Assembly (NCBI GenBank): GCA_012838345.1
Contig: DUPK01000063.1
Coordinates: 8,738 to 72,737 of the forward strand
Source: Clostridiales bacterium
Lineage (GTDB): Bacteria > Bacillota > Clostridia > Oscillospirales > Oscillospiraceae
DNA length: 64,000 nucleotides
Direction of reading: 5' to 3'
How positions within the stretch are numbered: the first letter of the stretch is position 1; each line of letters begins with the position of its first letter. Positions 52,494-63,810 of this stretch are shown piece after piece. The position numbers and the translations under genes are program-made. The notes beneath the pieces are model-generated. The model did no database searches. It worked only from the letters and a program-made list of their open reading frames with translations, and was not told the origin of the DNA.

Positions 52494-53627
52494 TCAAGAG
52501 GGAAAAGAGCCTGAAAAGCTCGTCAGCTCGGCCCCCGGATAATAATTTGCAAGGATTTCGTCGAATGTTGCCCCGTCCGCGGCCAGGATGTTGGCCCCGT
52601 ACTGGCTCATGCCCACGCCGTGCCCATAGCCCGCGACGGAGAACACAAAGCTTCCCCCGTCGTATTTAAAAGAAAAGGCGGTTGAGCGAAGCCCAAGCAA
52701 AAAGCGTAAATCGGAGCCTGATATATCCACGCCGCCGACCCTGAGGGATTTAACCCGCCCGCTCTCGGTGTAAAGCACACCCGAAATCCACAGATTGGGG
52801 TCGTCCACAAAATGCGCGTTCGGGAATCTCCCGAGTACGGTATTCTTAAAATCTTCCGCAGATATGCTAAGCGTCGATAATAGGTTTGAAACGCGCTCCG
52901 GAGTCTCCGGACTGTCGACGGGCACAAGATAGGGAAGGGGATTTTTCCAGACGTTTTCGCTCCCTTCGGTTTTGCCGGGGGATGAGGAATGAAATACTGC
53001 CAGTATCGGCTCTCCCGCCCAGGTCAAGTACAGTCCATCCGTAGCCTCGACGGCAGAGCGGATTTTCTCTATGTACTTGTCGTAATCCCCTCCCCATTTT
53101 GCCTTCAGCTCCGAAGGCCCCAGATAGGCGCTGCAGCAGGCATAATTGTCGCAGATGTCGTATCCCTGATGAAAGTGGGACTTCTTTGAAATCTTGTGAA
53201 GCGCGTAGGTGCGCGCCGCGACCGCCTGGGCCTTCAGCGCTTCGACATTGAAGGAGGCCGGCATTTCCGCTGCCACAACCCCTGTCAGGTAATCATTTAT
53301 GGAGATGTCCACCGCTTCTCCTCCGCGGCCCAGCCTGATAACGGCGCCGTCTCCGGTTTGCGGCGCTTCAGTTTCAGGTGCAGACGTGAGAACGGGGGCA
53401 GGCGGAGCAGCAGGGGTGTGGACAGGCGGAGCGGTAGCAGACGGGGTGGGAACAGACGGAGTAGAAGTAGACGGAGCGGGGGTAAACACGGGAGGAGCAG
53501 ACGTGGCGGGAGCGGAGGGCGTGGGGACAGAGGGAGCGGGAGCCTCCAAAGCCGGCGCTACAAATATTAAAGGGATGTAGAGGACCAGCGCAATCAATAT
53601 AATTGAAACTATCAAGACAGCTTTCAT
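52494..53627 (-). CDS. spoIID: Stage II sporulation protein D (SpoIID/LytB domain) with a Pro/Ser/Thr-rich linker
   Basis: Motifs YL.GVVAAEMP.......ALKAQAVAARTYAL, CD...CQ-like (CDNYACCSAY), GHGVGMSQYGA. The ATG at 53627 (MKAVLIV...) has a GGAG at good spacing. The track start at 53657 is a TTG with no RBS. Confidence 0.9.
   Translation of the reverse strand: MKAVLIVSIILIALVLYIPLIFVAPALEAPAPSVPTPSAPATSAPPVFTPAPSTSTPSVPTPSATAPPVHTPAAPPAPVLTSAPETEAPQTGDGAVIRLGRGGEAVDISINDYLTGVVAAEMPASFNVEALKAQAVAARTYALHKISKKSHFHQGYDICDNYACCSAYLGPSELKAKWGGDYDKYIEKIRSAVEATDGLYLTWAGEPILAVFHSSSPGKTEGSENVWKNPLPYLVPVDSPETPERVSNLLSTLSISAEDFKNTVLGRFPNAHFVDDPNLWISGVLYTESGRVKSLRVGGVDISGSDLRFLLGLRSTAFSFKYDGGSFVFSVAGYGHGVGMSQYGANILAADGATFDEILANYYPGAELTSFSGSFPS
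53385..53545 (-). repeat. Coding low-complexity (PS/PT/AP) region of spoIID
   Basis: Encodes APAPSVPTPSAPATSAPPVFTPAPSTSTPSVPTPSATAPPVHTPAAPPAPV. The DNA contains imperfect repeats of ggagc/gacgg units. Confidence 0.7.
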
Positions 53628-58703: not shown

Positions 58704-60530
58704 TTATGAAGCTAAATAATACTCAGTATAATAGCCCAGTTTATATTGGTGCTCGGAAACTCTGGGCTCAATGCCGATTTCCTTAAGATATGACATAGTC
58801 CTTTCCGAGCTGACGTTTGGAACAATGGTGAAGCTGATTTCATTTGCAAAGTTAAATACGATAAAGCAGTCATAATATGCGTTTTCAGAACCCGGGTCAT
58901 ACAAGATGGGGACTCTGCAGAGTTTGCCCTCGCGCAAATCAGCATGTATGAAATCGCGCAGGAACTCCCGTGCCTTTTCGCCCGTGAGGTACTCGGTAAT
59001 GTAGTCCATGTCACTGTTGCTGTTCCGGCCTACGTAGTTTATCTCTACTGTGGTAAGGAGAGCCGGGTCCCATTCAAGGAAGCGGCTCATGCGGTCGGCC
59101 ACCGCCGCGGGAGTATTAATCGTATCTTCCAGGAGCTCGAGCACTTCTCTGTCCACCCCGGGCACATCGTAAAGGTCATAGCGGCGTGAAATTTGCTTGA
59201 AGTCTCTGCGGTCATAGAGGATTGAGACGTGGAACGAGTCATAATAGGCGTCCCTGTTTTCTCTGGCGAAAGCTTCGTTTGCTTCCTTGTTTTCGACTAT
59301 GGCCTTATGCGCCTGCATAAGCTCGCTTATCACCTCGGGGTCGTTAAATGTCATGGGGGAGGAGAACCCTGAAATAGTGACATCGAATATCGAATCTAGT
59401 TTGGGGATATATCTCTCGACCTTAAAGACGTCAAATTCCATCGCCGTCACAAGCGCGCTTAGGACAAGGGCATATGCGATGAAGCCGGCTCCGGTTTTCT
59501 TAAACACCCGGAAGGATTTGTTGAGCAGCATTGAGGTGATGAAGTAGCCCAGGAATCCGCCCGCTGTCATGCATACGAGAATCGACCAGGCCGAGTTGTC
59601 AGGCGGGTTGTAGATTGATGAGGCGAATATGGCCAGATAGAAGATCATTCCGATTACAAGCGAACCGATGAAGGCGAAGAAGTACAGGAAGACCGGCCTT
59701 AAGGCGGGCACGGCTATGAACTCCGAGGCGCTTTCGCTGTGGCGCCTGCGGTAAAGCAGCAGAGCGATAATAGCATAGACTAAGCCTGCCACGGCGTATA
59801 ATATGAGCGCATACCAGCCTGTGTAGGCCGGCTCTGTTTGCAGGATGCCGACATAACGACCCGTAACATTGGTGTTTTTAAACAGCATAATAATTGGCGA
59901 TAGAATGTCAAAGGTTGTCGAGCCGCTGTCTGAAAGGCCGTAGCAGAACAGCGAAGTCCAAAAGCGGATTATAAGCTCGATTATGATTACGACAAAGTTT
60001 AATATGCCGTAAATCACCAAGTGCGCAAAGCCGTGGCCGGTCAGGAAGGCGCAAAAGACCGCAAAGCCATAGAAGAACAGTCCCTCAAGGCAGACCATAG
60101 CAAGCCACTGGAGCAGATATTTGATGGCAAGAGCGCCGTATATAAGCTCGACCACAGCCGACAGCGCGAAGATAAAGAGGTTCGATACGAAAAGCCAGCA
60201 AAGGCCGGAGAGGAAACAGGTCAGGAAAAGCCCCTCGCGGCGGATGGGCAATGTGTGAAAGGCGCCGACGCTTCTAGAGGTATAGAGGTACGAAAAGAGT
60301 GTCAGCGCAGACACGAAGCCGAAGATGGCGTTAGTTATGACGCCCATGTAAAGCGCGTTGCTCAATACGTACCCATTGACGATTTCCGGGTAGGAGCTCG
60401 ACAGCTGGCTTAGAAGCACCAGTGGCATGCCAATAAGCCAGGCGATGTTGTAGAGAACCCAGACGGGCCAGAAGCGCTTTATGTTCTTGAAGAACAGGGC
60501 CTTATTAAAGCAGGATTTCGCGGACTTCAT
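58704..60530 (-). CDS. ABC-2-type transporter permease-like membrane protein with a large C-terminal extracytoplasmic domain
   Basis: About 10 TM segments over the first 400 aa or so, then a soluble domain of about 200 aa. It overlaps the upstream ATPase gene by 26 nt, and GGGAGG precedes the ATG. Confidence 0.7.
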   Translation of the reverse strand: MKSAKSCFNKALFFKNIKRFWPVWVLYNIAWLIGMPLVLLSQLSSSYPEIVNGYVLSNALYMGVITNAIFGFVSALTLFSYLYTSRSVGAFHTLPIRREGLFLTCFLSGLCWLFVSNLFIFALSAVVELIYGALAIKYLLQWLAMVCLEGLFFYGFAVFCAFLTGHGFAHLVIYGILNFVVIIIELIIRFWTSLFCYGLSDSGSTTFDILSPIIMLFKNTNVTGRYVGILQTEPAYTGWYALILYAVAGLVYAIIALLLYRRRHSESASEFIAVPALRPVFLYFFAFIGSLVIGMIFYLAIFASSIYNPPDNSAWSILVCMTAGGFLGYFITSMLLNKSFRVFKKTGAGFIAYALVLSALVTAMEFDVFKVERYIPKLDSIFDVTISGFSSPMTFNDPEVISELMQAHKAIVENKEANEAFARENRDAYYDSFHVSILYDRRDFKQISRRYDLYDVPGVDREVLELLEDTINTPAAVADRMSRFLEWDPALLTTVEINYVGRNSNSDMDYITEYLTGEKAREFLRDFIHADLREGKLCRVPILYDPGSENAYYDCFIVFNFANEISFTIVPNVSSERTMSYLKEIGIEPRVSEHQYKLGYYTEYYLAS

Positions 60531-61505: not shown

Positions 61506-61907
61506 TCAATCGAAGTTGGTATCATGCTGCGCACGCCCTCCTTCCGAATCCTTAGCAAGCCTGTCTATGCGGCTTTTTAGCTCCCCGGCACCCATGCCCA
61601 GAAACATAAGCTCCACCGCCGCCTCCTCAAACTTCTTAAGCTGCCGCTCGCGGCGCCCCGCATCCACTTCCGATATGTCGGACACAAAGGAGCCCTTGCC
61701 CGCGGTCGTGTAAATATAGCCCTCTGCCTCGAGCTCCTTGTAGGCCCGCTGTATGGTGTTGGGGTTTATCGCGAGGGAGGAGGCAAGCTCACGAACCGAG
61801 GGCAGCCTTTCGTGGGGTGAAAAGGCGCCTGTCATCACGAGTTTTCTGATGCCGTCCTTTATCTGCTCATAAATCGGCCTTGAGTCTCTGTAGTTTAGGT
61901 TTATCAC
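61506..61907 (-). CDS. GntR family transcriptional regulator, YtrA subfamily
   Basis: The GTG at 61907 follows GGGTGG. PIYEQIKDGIRKLVMTGAFSPHERLPSVRELASSLAINPNTIQRAYKELEAEGYIYTTAGKGSFV is the winged helix-turn-helix. The short C-terminal part is typical of YtrA regulators that precede ABC transporters. Confidence 0.88.
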   Translation of the reverse strand: MINLNYRDSRPIYEQIKDGIRKLVMTGAFSPHERLPSVRELASSLAINPNTIQRAYKELEAEGYIYTTAGKGSFVSDISEVDAGRRERQLKKFEEAAVELMFLGMGAGELKSRIDRLAKDSEGGRAQHDTNFD

Positions 61908-61928
61908 GTCATCACCACCCTTGAAATC

Positions 61929-61949
61929 TGTATTAACAATGTTAATACA
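61929..61949. promoter_or_regulatory. Perfect 10-1-10 palindrome, candidate YtrA-type operator
   Basis: TGTATTAACA-a-TGTTAATACA lies 22 nt upstream of the proposed GntR start codon. Confidence 0.6.
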
Positions 61950-62082
61950 GATAATACACAGCGCGAAACCACTTGTCAAGTGATTTTTTGAAAATTTTGG
62001 TCAACAACGGAAAGTATTTCTATTAGGGTGCTCCGGACAGGCGGAATATATTTCTCTGTTTTTTAAATAGATTTCAGTTTAG

Positions 62083-62111
62083 TTGACAAAAGATTGATGC
62101 CTTGATATACT
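62083..62111 (+). promoter_or_regulatory. Near-consensus extended -10 promoter driving the cobalamin riboswitch
   Basis: TTGACA (62083-62088), a 17-nt spacer ending in TGa, then TATACT (62106-62111). Confidence 0.7.
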
Positions 62112-62134
62112 GGCACCGACAAAAGAATAAAGAT

Positions 62135-62290
62135 GCTTTCGGGTGGCCGCTGCCTTAATAAGGAAACAGGTGAAAAGCCTGTGCGAACCCGTCGCTGTAA
62201 GAGAAGAGTCCGTTTCACGTTTGGGTCACTGAGAAATCGGGAAGATCGAAGCGGGTGTTGACGCTCGAGCCAGAAGACTTGCCCGGAAGC
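62135..62290 (+). promoter_or_regulatory. Cobalamin (B12) riboswitch aptamer
   Basis: The P1 helix is gctttcggg / cccggaagc. The conserved core reads ttaataaggaaacaggtgaaaagcctgtgcgaacccgtcgctgtaagag, then gggtcactg...gggaag. The B12-box-like segment is gagccagaagacttgcc. All of this parallels the E. coli btuB leader and the Rfam RF00174 consensus as I remember them. Confidence 0.88.
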
Positions 62291-62365
62291 CGGTACGAAA
62301 AGCCACGGGGGATTGGCGAAAGTACATATATGGGGATAATATGGCTTTATCCTCTTGTGTGCGCT

Positions 62366-62397
62366 GTGGCTTTCGTTTTGAAAGCCGCTTTTATTTT
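62366..62397 (+). terminator. Intrinsic terminator (probable expression platform of the B12 riboswitch)
   Basis: gtggctttc-gtttt-gaaagccgc (9 bp, one G-U) followed by ttttatttt. Confidence 0.7.
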
Positions 62398-62479
62398 GCT
62401 TATTTCCGTGCCCTGTATGCGGTCGCGGCACCCCCGTTGATACTGATTGGAAACTCCTTATGTAGGTTATCTGCTCAAA

Positions 62480-62519
62480 GGTAAGAAGCCGGAGGCTTAA
62501 GCCCCCGGCTTTTTACCTT
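62480..62519. terminator. Bidirectional terminator hairpin between the riboswitch transcript and the convergent GNAT gene
   Basis: ggtaagaagccgg-a-ggc-ttaa-gcc-c-ccggctttttacc is a long imperfect hairpin. It has a T-run on the plus strand and cttaccttt on the minus strand. Confidence 0.65.
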
Positions 62520-62586
62520 GTCTGGAGAGGGGAAACGGTGCCTTGGAAATACGTACCGAGTCTGTAAAAGTGGACAAGGGACGGTA

Positions 62587-63096
62587 TTAAATATCTTTCT
62601 CATAGCAGCAGAAAGGATATTCCATGTGGGGATAACGAAGCTGTCCCGCTCTTTTGTATCCAAAATTCTCGTACAGCTTTAGTGCCGTTTCATTTCCGCC
62701 GTAGGCCACTAATCTAATACTGGAATAGTCGTTTTTTAAGGCGAAATCCTCAATGAAGCCTAACATCTTTTTTGCAATGCCCCTGCCCTGGTATTCGGGC
62801 AGAACGGCCAACCTGTGGATGAACAATACCTTTCTCCCGTCGGAAGACCATTTTAACTGACTGTGTTCAGGGGGCTCTTCTTCAATTTCTTCATTTATTG
62901 CAGCGTATGCTATGCATCTGCCCTTGTCCTTTATAACGTAACTGTGCCCGCTCTCAATATCTTCTTCAATAATATTGGCGTCCGGATAGGCTTCATCCCA
63001 CTGATATATCCTCTGGCTCTCCATATGTTTTGTGCACCTGGAGATTATATCCAATACATCCGGCACGTCCCCTTTTTGCCCCTTGACAATATCCAT
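62587..63096 (-). CDS. GNAT family N-acetyltransferase
   Basis: Acetyl-CoA binding motif L.VLPEYQGRGIAKKML. The ATG at 63096 (MDIVKGQKGDVPDVLDII...) has an AAGGGG upstream, whereas the track ATG at 63141 has no RBS. The gene is visibly AT-richer than the flanking DNA. Confidence 0.85.
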   Translation of the reverse strand: MDIVKGQKGDVPDVLDIISRCTKHMESQRIYQWDEAYPDANIIEEDIESGHSYVIKDKGRCIAYAAINEEIEEEPPEHSQLKWSSDGRKVLFIHRLAVLPEYQGRGIAKKMLGFIEDFALKNDYSSIRLVAYGGNETALKLYENFGYKRAGQLRYPHMEYPFCCYEKDI

Positions 63097-63210
63097 CCCT
63101 TTTTTCCCCTTAATAAGTCTGTTTTCATTTTTCCGTTTCATATTAACAAAAATTTGACCGATTTGAAATATAAAGATTTCTGAATTGTCAGGTCAAATCC
63201 CGAAAAAGAA

Positions 63211-63244
63211 AATGCCCTTAACAGCCGCAGCCGTTAAGGGCATT
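63211..63244 (-). terminator. Rho-independent terminator after the rubrerythrin gene
   Basis: aatgcccttaac-(10 nt)-gttaagggcatt (12 bp, perfect). On the minus strand it is followed by tttctttttcg. Confidence 0.8.
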
Positions 63245-63258
63245 GAATATTTATCAGA

Positions 63259-63810
63259 TTACTTTCCGAAATATCTCTTTAGCAGTCCCGCAAAGCCCGC
63301 GCCGTGTCTGGCTTCGTCCTTTGCCATCTCGTGTACTGTGTCATGGATGGCGTCATAGCCAAGCTCCTTGGCGCGCTTGGCAAGCTCGCACTTGCCCGTG
63401 CAGGCGCCGGACTCCGCACCGGCGCGCATTTCAAGGTTCTTCTTGGTGCTGTCCGTCACTACCTCGCCCAGAAGCTCAGCAAACTTCGCGGCGTGCTCGG
63501 CTTCCTCGAAGGCGTAGCGCTTGAAGGCTTCGGCAATCTCGGGATAGCCTTCGCGGTCGGCCACGCGGCTCATCGCTAGATACATGCCCACCTCGGCGCA
63601 TTCGCCGTTGAAGTTGTCAAGAAGACCCTGGTATACGTCCGGCTCCACCTTGTCCTTGGCTCCGATGCCGACTACGTGCTCGGCCGCATAGCCGGATTCC
63701 TGAGCCTGCTCTCTGAACTTGCTCGCAGGAGCCTTACAGACGGGGCAGGCCTCGGGGGGAGTGGAGCCCTCGTGAATATAACCGCATACTGTGCAAACCC
63801 ATTTTTTCAT
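63259..63810 (-). CDS. rbr: Reverse rubrerythrin (N-terminal rubredoxin-like CxxC/CxxC domain plus C-terminal diiron ferritin-like domain)
   Basis: [28 protein letters not shown] is followed by ExxH diiron motifs ([16 protein letters not shown]). Confidence 0.9.

What the first reader, a model, noticed from the sequence alone, without database searches (positions are those of the whole stretch)
62083..62519. Orphan cobalamin riboswitch: promoter, aptamer and terminator but no gene to regulate, pointing at a convergent GNAT gene
Seen in sequence:
- A near-consensus promoter (TTGACA-17-TGaTATACT) is followed by an aptamer with P1 and the conserved B12 core and box (62135-62290).
- An intrinsic terminator follows at 62366-62397.
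- Downstream on the plus strand there is no credible ORF. The only one is a 36-codon hydrophobic ORF at 62330-62440 with no usable RBS, and it runs through the terminator hairpin.
- About 90 nt further there is a second, bidirectional terminator (62480-62519). The next gene (GNAT, 62587-63096) is on the opposite strand.

Established knowledge: B12 riboswitches normally sit in 5' leaders of btu, cob/cbi, metE or nrd genes. Rare exceptions gate non-coding RNAs, such as EutX/Rli55 in Enterococcus/Listeria and the AspocR antisense RNA in Listeria.

Inference, three scenarios:
1. A B12-gated small RNA, about 280 nt when terminated and about 400 nt on read-through.
2. B12-gated antisense transcription into the GNAT gene if both terminators are read through.
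3. A stranded relic whose cargo gene was replaced by the AT-richer GNAT insertion.
Basis: partly seen in the sequence, partly recalled or inferred. Interest (0 to 1): 0.7.

Follow-up and report, generated by a model that had tools for sequence, protein, structure and literature searches.

The report
B12-gated standalone small RNA gene
A vitamin-B12-sensing RNA switch with its own promoter and two terminators but no gene behind it is conserved in at least nine related uncultured gut/digester Clostridia, so it most likely makes a B12-controlled regulatory RNA rather than being a broken leftover.

Summary
These are a near-consensus promoter (62083-62111), a full-length cobalamin aptamer (62124-300, 96 bits against a 31.5-bit threshold), terminator 1 (62366-397), a second hairpin terminator (62478-519), no credible ORF, and a convergent GNAT gene.

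Seventeen independent assemblies of the same species are identical here, so this is not an assembly gap. Eight other species carry the same unit: promoter, aptamer, terminator 1, a tail of about 100-150 nt, then terminator 2. It always lies divergent from a YtrA/PmtR-like GntR and ABC-exporter operon. The gene downstream differs between species (GNAT, rubrerythrin, ACT-domain protein, MCP, prs, class II RNR).

Species without the GNAT gene still have no cargo gene. The aptamer stays 77-91% identical where four-fold sites are only 32-66% identical. Terminator 2 shows 11 compensatory pairs. The small ORFs are not conserved.

This supports scenario 1 (a B12-gated ncRNA, about 280 nt with B12 and about 400 nt without). 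It does not support GNAT antisense control or the stranded-relic idea. What the tail does is unknown: it has no ANTAR site and matches no Rfam family. Its only invariant features are a UCUGYUC motif and a CCGGAGG hairpin core.

The parts
62023..62053 (+). Conserved bipartite motif (TTAGGGTGCTC ... GGAATATATTT) 30-60 nt upstream of the riboswitch -35. It may be a regulator-binding site or an UP element.
   Evidence: The motif recurs in window, L024, L018, L027, L028, L032 and L037 in otherwise poorly conserved intergenic DNA (sequences; alignment A1). Its function was not tested.
62083..62111 (+). Sigma-70-type promoter: TTGACA, 17 nt, TG-n-TATACT. The transcription start is inferred at about 62118.
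   Evidence: One search gives 11 of 12 matches with an extended -10 TG. The -35 TTGACA, the TG and the -10 are conserved in all 9 species.
62124..62300 (+). Cobalamin (B12) riboswitch aptamer, a full-length RF00174 match.
   Evidence: 96 bits, E = 1.2e-22, model positions 1-189. Orthologues score 99-108 bits. Mean pairwise identity is 0.82, against 0.32-0.66 at four-fold sites of the neighbouring ABC ATPase gene.
62293..62325 (+). P13-like hairpin of the expression platform (GUAC...GCCA-loop-UGGC...GUAC). Its 5' half holds the antiterminator strand AAAGCCAC (62299-62306). Its loop (ACGGG) could kiss the aptamer loop CCCGU.
   Evidence: Seen in the consensus fold of the 9-species alignment and as helices 1-2 (83-88% of cells paired, little variation). 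The kissing-loop pairing is my reading of the sequence and was not tested.
62325..62361 (+). Variable spacer hairpin between P13 and terminator 1.
   Evidence: Helix 3 has compensatory changes at 4 of its 5 pairs. It also appears in the MFE fold.
62366..62397 (+). Terminator 1, the switchable terminator: stem 62366-62388 plus a U-run. Its 5' arm GUGGCUUU (62366-62373) can instead pair with AAAGCCAC (62299-62306) to form an antiterminator.
   Evidence: Found. Helix 4 is 97.8% paired. The terminator fold (-36.7 kcal/mol) and the enforced antiterminator fold (-36.4 kcal/mol) are nearly equal in energy. The antiterminator is the MFE structure before the 3' arm of the terminator is transcribed.
62398..62477 (+). 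Read-through tail. It would be made only when terminator 1 is skipped. It ends in the motif UCUGCUCA (62470-62477); UCUGYUC is invariant across species.
   Evidence: Alignment A2. Overall the tail evolves at about the neutral rate between clades. Within the five-species L018 clade it is 80% identical and folds into a hairpin that presents a CUGUUC hexaloop. It matches no Rfam family, has no ANTAR motif and has no conserved ORF.
62478..62519 (+). Terminator 2: a 19-bp hairpin with an invariant CCGGAGG 5' core, followed by a U-rich tail. It defines the 3' end of the long RNA (about 400 nt) and has a bidirectional shape.
   Evidence: One search finds it on both strands; 19 pairs, 11 with compensatory changes, 94.7% of cells paired. 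The pattern CCGGAGG-N3-9-CCYCCGG occurs once in the window against 0.02 expected, and it marks the unit in every related locus.

Best explanation
This is a self-contained gene for a B12-gated non-coding RNA.

A strong, probably constitutive, promoter starts transcription at about 62118. The nascent RNA folds into a cobalamin aptamer.

- With the corrinoid bound, the P13-like hairpin (probably locked by a loop-loop contact with the aptamer) holds the AAAGCCAC strand. Terminator 1 then forms and transcription stops at about 62397, giving an RNA of about 280 nt.
- Without the ligand, AAAGCCAC pairs with GUGGCUUU as an antiterminator. The polymerase continues to terminator 2 at about 62519 and makes an RNA of about 400 nt.

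The extra ~120-nt tail exposes the invariant UCUGYUC motif just 5' of the invariant CCGGAGG hairpin. I infer that this tail is the effector, acting in trans on mRNA(s) or on a protein when B12 is scarce. The logic is that of EutX/Rli55, but the output domain is different and its target is unknown.

Shown here: aptamer membership, the terminator/antiterminator alternative, absence of a conserved ORF, conservation of the module across 9 species with changing downstream neighbours, and purifying selection.

Inferred: ligand-dependent termination, that the long form is the active one, and trans action.
For: - Aptamer: 96 bits in the window and 99-108 bits in 8 orthologues.
- Promoter, terminator 1 and terminator 2 are found in the window and in relatives.
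- The terminator and antiterminator folds are nearly isoenergetic. The antiterminator is the default during transcription.
- The unit lies next to the GntR-ABC operon in 9 species-level lineages, with at least 6 different downstream neighbours.
- Where a co-directional gene follows, it has its own promoter after the terminators. These are L029 RNR, with a promoter at 4315-4287, and L037 prs, which lies behind a third terminator.
- Aptamer identity is 0.77-0.91 where four-fold sites are 0.32-0.66.
- Terminator 2 has 11 of 19 pairs with compensatory changes, and the structure as a whole exceeds all 500 shuffles and all slid controls.
- The small ORFs are not conserved.
- The architecture parallels EutX/Rli55, as described in PMC5821096.
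Against: - There are no expression data. The organism is known only from metagenomes, so the promoter, both 3' ends and the B12 response are predictions.
- Between the window clade and the other clades the tail is about as diverged as neutral sites, apart from a 7-nt motif and terminator 2. The case for an effector domain is therefore thin for the window species itself.
- No convincing target was found. The 11-nt match to the GntR mRNA is not conserved and is not significant.
- Two relatives, L031 and L036, keep the GntR operon without the unit.
Confidence: 0.62

Rival explanations
1. Neighbour-directed regulator. The long RNA acts on the divergently transcribed YtrA/PmtR-like GntR-ABC exporter operon. 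For example, its UUAUCUGCUCA segment could pair with codons 12-15 of the GntR mRNA, linking B12 status to exporter expression. This is a special case of the best explanation with a named target.
For: The unit is always adjacent and divergent to this operon while its other flank changes. In the window, 62467-62477 is perfectly complementary over 11 nt to the GntR mRNA at 61859-61869, and that is the only 11-mer or longer hit falling on a transcribed strand in the 64 kb. The same site pairs over 8 bp in L024 and 7 bp in L032. A precedent exists for a riboswitch RNA that targets a regulator mRNA: DseA and sahR (bioRxiv 10.1101/803072).
Against: Pairing shrinks to 7 bp with a G.U in the L018 clade and to 5 bp in L029 and L030. 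Duplex energies are no better than for shuffled tails. About one to three 11-mers are expected by chance in the window. The site is about 40 nt inside the coding region, outside the usual ribosome-binding window. L031 and L036 run the operon without the unit.
Confidence: 0.15
2. The short RNA, or the act of switching itself, is the point and the tail is only spacer. The unit could be a B12-binding RNA that buffers or reports corrinoid, or a transcription unit whose strong promoter matters for the neighbouring divergent promoter. Terminator 2 would then be a backstop that protects whatever lies downstream.
For: The aptamer and platform are the strongly conserved parts. Outside one clade the tail is near neutral. 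Terminator 2 is U-tailed and bidirectional in shape, like an insulator between convergent units.
Against: A regulated terminator with a conserved antiterminator makes little sense if nothing downstream matters. UCUGYUC and the CCGGAGG core are invariant even where four-fold sites are saturated. The tail is 80% identical in the five-species clade, whose four-fold sites are about 50% identical.
Confidence: 0.1
3. B12-gated antisense or convergent-transcription control of the downstream gene (GNAT in this window), in the manner of AspocR.
For: The GNAT gene is convergent and starts 68 nt beyond terminator 2. Some read-through of terminators is always possible.
Against: GNAT is present only in the window species and L024. 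Other species have rubrerythrin, an ACT-domain gene, an MCP or an 84-aa ORF in that position, or co-directional prs or RNR. Terminator 2 is a 19-bp GC-rich hairpin with a U-tail, kept by compensatory changes in all 9 species.
Confidence: 0.06
4. A stranded relic: a riboswitch that lost its cargo gene and is decaying.
For: No ORF follows it. The GNAT region is AT-richer (0.44-0.46 GC against 0.55-0.62 in the flanks) and is an indel relative to L018, L026 and L028.
Against: Relatives without GNAT have no cargo gene either. The promoter, aptamer, antiterminator and both terminators are all intact in 9 lineages whose four-fold sites have diverged to 32-66% identity. All aptamers score 96-108 bits.
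Confidence: 0.04
5. A small protein is encoded downstream or on the opposite strand: the 36-aa hydrophobic ORF, the 47-aa ORF, or the 122-aa antisense ORF.
For: ORFs exist at 62330-62440, 62341-62484 and 62063-62431(-). One automatic gene caller placed a gene on the antisense strand in L001.
Against: In L024 and L018 the 36-codon ORF has no ATG and meets early stops, and the 47-aa frame stops inside terminator 1. The similarity between these ORFs only tracks conserved RNA stems. There is no Shine-Dalgarno sequence. The antisense ORF overlaps a 96-bit RNA match whose stems co-vary.
Confidence: 0.03

Closest known systems
EutX (Enterococcus faecalis) / Rli55 (Listeria monocytogenes): AdoCbl-riboswitch-gated sRNA
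   Same: Both have their own promoter, a cobalamin aptamer at the 5' end and no ORF. Ligand binding gives a short terminated RNA, and absence of ligand gives a longer RNA carrying an effector domain. Both can sit in either orientation relative to neighbouring genes (PMC5821096).
   Different: The EutX effector is a dual-hexaloop ANTAR (EutV) binding site with A1 and G4 (PMC8934654). No such site is present in any of the 9 tails. EutX lies in the eut locus, whereas this unit lies next to a YtrA/PmtR-like GntR and ABC exporter operon. The host clade also differs (uncultured Oscillospiraceae/Clostridiales MAGs).
AspocR (Listeria): B12-riboswitch-controlled antisense RNA to pocR
   Same: A B12 riboswitch without a coding sequence, pointing at a convergent gene.
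   Different: Here a conserved intrinsic terminator (terminator 2) stops the RNA before the convergent gene, and the convergent gene is not conserved between species.
Riboswitch RNAs that also act in trans: SreA/SreB (Listeria SAM riboswitches) and DseA (Desulfovibrio SAM-I, targets sahR)
   Same: A riboswitch-derived RNA acts as a trans regulator of a transcription-factor mRNA (DseA: bioRxiv 10.1101/803072). This resembles the weak GntR-mRNA lead found here.
   Different: Those riboswitches still control a downstream gene in cis. This one has none, and its candidate pairing is unconfirmed.
Orphan c-di-GMP-I riboswitch between CD2517 and CD2517.1 in Clostridioides difficile
   Same: A recognised riboswitch aptamer with no downstream CDS, listed as 'no known function' (PMC11477304).
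   Different: It senses a different ligand, and the source I read gives no comparative evidence for a conserved tail or second terminator.
Ordinary cobalamin riboswitch leaders (btuF, cbi, nrd, metE), for example the one in L020
   Same: The same aptamer family and a terminator-type platform. L020 12472-12662 scores 72.8 bits and is followed after about 145 nt by a gene for a lipoprotein-like substrate-binding protein.
   Different: No coding sequence follows here in any of the 9 species. Instead there is a second, dedicated terminator.

Membership tests
Cobalamin riboswitch aptamer (Rfam RF00174) | Covariance-model score at or above the curated gathering score, over the full model | tested here: met
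   96.0 bits against 31.5, E = 1.2e-22, model positions 1-189 of 189. Orthologues score 98.9-107.7 bits.
Cobalamin riboswitch aptamer (Rfam RF00174) | Conserved core and B12-box sequence kept under selection in orthologues | tested here: met
   GCCACUG-type core, and GAGCCAGAAGACUU[GA]CC invariant except one substitution (L037), in 9 species. Aptamer identity is 0.82 against four-fold sites at 0.32-0.66.
Cobalamin riboswitch aptamer (Rfam RF00174) | Binds a corrinoid ligand | not testable with these tools
   Needs in-line probing, ITC or a transcription assay.
Canonical cis-acting cobalamin riboswitch (5' leader of a B12-related mRNA) | A coding sequence in the same transcription unit downstream of the expression platform | tested here: not met
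   No conserved ORF. Terminator 2 closes the unit in all 9 species. Co-directional genes in L029 and L037 have their own promoters.
Transcriptional OFF-switch expression platform | An intrinsic terminator with a mutually exclusive antiterminator that involves sequence next to the aptamer | tested here: met
   Terminator found. AAAGCCAC pairs with GUGGCUUU. Energies are -36.7 against -36.4 kcal/mol, and the antiterminator is the MFE fold before the terminator 3' arm exists. The GCCAC/GUGGC core is invariant.
Transcriptional OFF-switch expression platform | Ligand-dependent termination | not testable with these tools
   Needs single-round in vitro transcription with and without AdoCbl.
EutX/Rli55-type riboswitch sRNA | Own promoter, cobalamin aptamer, no ORF, and short and long RNA forms set by a switchable terminator | tested here: met
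   This is architecture only; the transcripts are not verified.
EutX/Rli55-type riboswitch sRNA | An ANTAR (EutV) binding site, meaning hexaloop hairpins with A at position 1 and G at position 4, in the read-through extension | tested here: not met
   No dual motif in any of the 9 tails. The only single A1/G4 hexaloop is a 4-bp stem in L028. The conserved hexaloop is CUGUUC.
EutX/Rli55-type riboswitch sRNA | Association with a eut/pdu locus or a EutV/EutW system | tested here: inconclusive
   None of the genes called within about 5-10 kb of the unit in any locus is eut, pdu or ANTAR. The rest of the genome is not available.
AspocR-type riboswitch-gated antisense RNA | The read-through transcript overlaps a specific, conserved convergent target gene | tested here: not met
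   The convergent partner differs among species, and terminator 2 lies before it.
Type I toxin or other small membrane protein gene | A small ORF conserved in frame among relatives | tested here: not met
   The 36-aa and 47-aa ORFs are interrupted or have no start codon in L024 and L018.

The most novel reading that the evidence does not exclude
This is a previously undescribed family of B12-gated trans-acting RNAs in uncultured Oscillospiraceae-like Clostridia. Its output domain is not an ANTAR decoy. It consists of a loop-presented UCUGYUC motif stacked on an invariant CCGGAGG hairpin. The family is genetically tied to a YtrA/PmtR-type repressor and ABC exporter operon. It would couple corrinoid scarcity to a regulon, possibly that exporter, outside the classic btu/cob/eut/pdu set.
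Probability: 0.4. Interest if true: 0.72.

Novelty: new variant of a known kind. Interest (0 to 1): 0.6.

Why it matters
Only a few riboswitches are known to gate non-coding RNAs rather than mRNAs. For B12 these are EutX/Rli55 and AspocR, and both are tied to ethanolamine or propanediol use.

A conserved B12-gated RNA with a different output domain would show that this design has arisen more than once. Its setting also differs: it is found in anaerobic-digester and gut-type Clostridia and is fixed beside an exporter operon. It would point to B12-dependent regulation outside the known B12 regulon, in communities where corrinoid cross-feeding shapes metabolism.

The case is also directly testable. 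The unit is about 440 bp with clear predictions: two 3' ends, an AdoCbl-dependent ratio between them, and a 7-nt invariant motif to mutate.

Tried and rejected
- **Same-species contigs.** The 17 contigs fetched through the rubrerythrin and GNAT proteins are more than 99.9% identical to the window. They exclude an assembly gap but say nothing about conservation.
- **Metagenome DNA scan.** Pattern GAGCCAGAAGACTTGCC-N6-14-GTACGAA returned only two contigs, and both belong to species already in hand.
- **Rfam at permissive thresholds.** Searches of the tail in the window and in L018 gave only sub-threshold hits driven by the terminator hairpin, such as ar35 at 27 bits against 45.
- **ANTAR motif search.** Negative.
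- **Target search.** Of the exact complements of 11 nt or longer in the 64 kb, the two longest (13 and 12 nt) fall in rpmD and rpmE on the same strand as the sRNA, so they cannot pair with those mRNAs. A third 11-mer (53215-53225) involves a non-conserved part of the tail and was not followed up. That leaves only the GntR site.
- **Duplex folding.** RNAduplex of each tail against its own GntR 5' region was no better than shuffled tails (one search timed out).
- **Seed search in the operon.** A search along the GntR-ABC operon in 9 species found no conserved site other than the weak GntR one.
- **Consensus fold of the tail.** A fold across all 9 species gave nothing beyond terminator 2, because the window/L024 clade and the others differ. 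A hairpin is supported only within the five-species clade.
- **RNR in L029 as ancestral cargo.** Rejected. The RNR lies behind both terminators and has its own promoter flanked by two CAATATAT-type palindromes 32 bp apart. These look like NrdR boxes, but that identification is from memory.
- **Antisense 122-aa ORF (62063-62431).** Treated as a by-product of the conserved RNA sequence.
Full report
**1. Observation**

- The promoter scan finds TTGACA-17-TATACT with an extended-10 TG at 62083-62111, 11 of 12 matches.
- Rfam places a full-length cobalamin aptamer at 62124-62300 on the + strand: 96.0 bits against a gathering score of 31.5, E = 1.2e-22, model positions 1-189. It is the only Rfam hit in the 64-kb window.
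- An intrinsic terminator follows at 62366-62388 with TTTTATTTT after it.
- A second GC-rich hairpin at 62486-62511 is flagged on both strands.
- The + strand ORFs downstream are the 36-codon ATG ORF (inside a 61-aa GTG ORF, 62255-62440) and a 47-aa ORF at 62341-62484. Both run through terminator 1.
- The next real gene is a GNAT acetyltransferase on the - strand at 62587-63096, followed by rubrerythrin at 63259-63810(-).
- Upstream and divergent is a short GntR regulator at 61506-61907(-). It has its own promoter (61979-61951) and heads an operon with an ABC ATPase, a 608-aa membrane protein and a two-component system.

**2. Not an assembly artefact**

Seventeen contigs from independent JGI, ENA and Logan assemblies carry the same rubrerythrin and GNAT proteins. 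They are 100% identical to the window over 61901-62620 and have the same gene order.

**3. Relatives**

I fetched relatives in two ways: a genome-collection scan with the 608-aa membrane protein, and contig look-ups for GntR homologues of 69-89% identity. Together they produced eight further species-level versions of the locus. Rfam finds a cobalamin aptamer of 99-108 bits divergent from the GntR gene in L018/L026, L024, L027, L028, L029, L030 and L032/L033. L037/L038 carries the same unit by sequence.

In every case the same module is present:

- a TTGACA-17-TG-extended promoter;
- the aptamer;
- a P13-like hairpin;
- a variable hairpin;
- terminator 1;
- a tail of about 100-150 nt;
- a long hairpin with a CCGGAGG core and a U-rich 3' side.

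What lies beyond the module differs between species:

| Locus | Downstream gene | Orientation |
|---|---|---|
| window, L024 | GNAT | convergent |
| L018/L026, L028 | rubrerythrin directly, no GNAT | convergent |
| L027 | ACT-domain protein | convergent |
| L030 | methyl-accepting chemotaxis protein (MCP) | convergent |
| L032 | 84-aa ORF | convergent |
| L037 | prs, behind a third terminator and with the promoter region it also has in L031/L036 | co-directional |
| L029 | class-II-type ribonucleotide reductase plus a B12-binding radical SAM gene, behind both terminators and with its own TTGACT-17-TACAAT promoter | co-directional |

Two relatives, L031 and L036, have the GntR operon next to prs and lack the unit.

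The unit is therefore inherited with the GntR-operon flank and is indifferent to its downstream neighbour.

**4. Selection**

The yardstick is the set of four-fold degenerate sites in the adjacent ABC ATPase gene. Identity to the window at those sites, compared with identity in the RNA unit, is as follows:

| Segment | L024 | L018 | L029 |
|---|---|---|---|
| Four-fold sites (neutral yardstick) | 0.66 | 0.50 | 0.32 (essentially saturated) |
| Aptamer | 0.91 | 0.83 | 0.77 |
| Expression platform | 0.80 | 0.75 | 0.57 |
| Terminator 2 | 0.76 | 0.69 | 0.56 |
| Tail | 0.63 | 0.38 | 0.33 (about neutral) |

The exception in the tail is the motif UCUG(C/U)UC, which is invariant in all nine species.

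Within the five-species L018 clade, four-fold sites are about 0.50-0.76 identical. The tail there is 80% identical and folds into a hairpin that presents a CUGUUC hexaloop directly 5' of terminator 2.

For a structure made of P13, the variable hairpin, terminator 1 and terminator 2:

- 92.4% of cells are paired.
- 16 pairs carry double-sided changes.
- No shuffle out of 500 and no slid control reaches those values.
- Terminator 2 alone has 11 of 19 pairs with compensatory changes and is 94.7% paired.

The upper stem CCGGAGG/CCUCCGG does not vary, apart from one A.C mismatch in the window itself. The pattern is unique in the window (1 found against 0.02 expected) and marks the unit in every locus. 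I cannot explain why the core is invariant.

**5. Expression-platform logic**

AAAGCCAC (62299-62306) lies in the 5' half of the P13-like hairpin and can pair with GUGGCUUU (62366-62373), the 5' arm of terminator 1. Folding 62291-62397 gives -36.7 kcal/mol for the terminator form and -36.4 kcal/mol when the antiterminator is enforced. When the sequence is cut just before the terminator 3' arm, the antiterminator is the MFE structure.

This is the usual layout of a transcriptional OFF switch. Read-through is the default, and ligand-stabilised P13 releases the terminator. The P13 loop (ACGGG, or ACG-N-GG in relatives) is complementary to the invariant aptamer loop CCCGU. That would fit an L5-L13-type kissing contact, but this is my reading of the sequences and was not tested.

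**6. Coding potential**

- In L024, the closest other species, the 36-codon frame has no ATG and stops inside terminator 1. The 47-aa frame also stops there.
- In L018 both frames are broken.
- The residual peptide similarity (for example FESRF) coincides with the terminator stem.
- The 122-aa antisense ORF (62063-62431) overlaps the aptamer, whose stems co-vary. I treat it as an artefact, although one pipeline called a gene there.

**7. What the tail might do**

- It matches no Rfam family, even at E up to 10.
- It has no ANTAR-type dual hexaloop (A1, G4) as defined in PMC8934654. It is therefore not a EutX/Rli55-type EutV decoy, although the overall logic is the same as described for EutX in PMC5821096.
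- In the window, the segment 62467-62477 (UUAUCUGCUCA) is perfectly complementary to the neighbouring GntR mRNA at 61859-61869 (codons 12-15).
- The two longer matches in the window lie in rpmD and rpmE on the non-pairing strand.
- The GntR pairing is 8 bp in L024 and 7 bp in L032. It is 7 bp with a G.U in L018 and only 5 bp in L029 and L030.
- Duplex energies do not beat shuffled controls.

I keep the GntR pairing as a weak lead only.

The neighbouring operon looks like a YtrA/PmtR-type repressor with a DrrA/ABC-2-type ATPase and an unclassified 608-aa membrane protein. Nothing in it is obviously related to B12.

**8.

- Scenario 1 (B12-gated sRNA) is the best-supported reading.
- Scenario 2 (antisense into GNAT) cannot be the conserved function. 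It is further disfavoured by a strong, conserved terminator 2.
- Scenario 3 (relic after GNAT insertion) is contradicted. The GNAT cassette, with its own promoter at 63196-63167, is an indel located between terminator 2 and the rubrerythrin terminator. It is present only in the window and L024 lineage. It is AT-richer than its flanks. It left the RNA unit untouched, and lineages without it have no cargo gene.

**9. Comparison with known systems and novelty**

The aptamer is a clear member of RF00174. The architecture belongs to the small known group of riboswitch-gated non-coding RNAs (EutX/Rli55, AspocR). It also resembles 'orphan' riboswitches such as the c-di-GMP-I element in C. difficile, listed with no known function (PMC11477304).

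It differs from EutX/Rli55 in its effector domain, genomic setting and host clade. It differs from AspocR in ending before the convergent gene.

Literature searches of the held library found no description of this family. I therefore rate it a new variant of a known kind. All functional steps beyond sequence and structure conservation remain inference, because there are no expression data for these uncultured organisms.

Noticed in passing
window 62520-63250: The GNAT gene, with its own promoter (63196-63167, - strand), is an indel. It is present only in the window species and L024. In L018/L026 and L028, rubrerythrin with its own terminator directly follows terminator 2. The region is AT-richer (GC 0.39-0.46) than its flanks (0.55-0.62).
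   Followed up: partly
window 61928-61950: A perfect palindrome, CTGTATTAA-N5-TTAATACAG, lies between the GntR promoter -10 and the GntR start codon. It is conserved in all relatives and is probably the autoregulatory operator of the YtrA/PmtR-like GntR.
   Followed up: no
window 62467-62477 and 61859-61869: There is an 11-nt perfect complementarity between the sRNA tail (UUAUCUGCUCA) and the neighbouring GntR mRNA (codons 12-15, YEQI). It shrinks to 5-8 bp in the other species and is not statistically significant.
   Followed up: yes
window 62489-62508 (terminator 2 core); every related locus: The 5' arm core CCGGAGG is invariant in 9 species, and its partner is CCUCCGG in 8 of them (CCCCCGG in the window), while the rest of the stem co-varies freely. 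The sequence contains a Shine-Dalgarno-like GGAGG and an anti-SD-like CCUCC. The reason for this sequence constraint is unexplained.
   Followed up: partly
L018 5627-5647 versus L026 4322-4342: These two otherwise identical sequences differ by an exact inversion of the terminator 2 loop plus its closing pair (GCGTGTTGC versus GCAACACGC). L032 has the second form. This is a hairpin-loop flip between the inverted repeats.
   Followed up: no
window 58704-60530 (- strand): The 608-aa multi-pass membrane protein of the GntR-ABC operon has no Pfam or NCBIfam match at all. It is nevertheless conserved (27-66% identity) in Oscillospiraceae and Lachnospiraceae MAGs, always downstream of the ABC ATPase.
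   Followed up: partly
L029 4246-4330 and 118-4246: In GCA_029267755.1 the unit is followed, after both terminators, by a class-II-type RNR (TSCPD domain) and a B12-binding radical SAM gene. The RNR promoter is flanked by two CAATATAT(T/A)G palindromes 32 bp apart that look like NrdR boxes; that identification is from memory. It is notable, and possibly coincidental, that B12-dependent enzymes sit beside a B12-gated RNA.
   Followed up: partly
L020 12472-12662: An unrelated, conventional cobalamin riboswitch (72.8 bits) with a terminator lies about 145 nt upstream of a gene for a lipoprotein-like substrate-binding protein (btuF-like by position). It serves as an ordinary comparator.
   Followed up: partly
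window 62023-62053: A conserved bipartite motif, TTAkGrTGCTC-N9-10-AATrTATTT, lies upstream of the riboswitch -35 in 7 of 9 species. L029 and L030 have AAATATTCGGCG instead. It is a candidate binding site for a regulator of the sRNA promoter.
   Followed up: no
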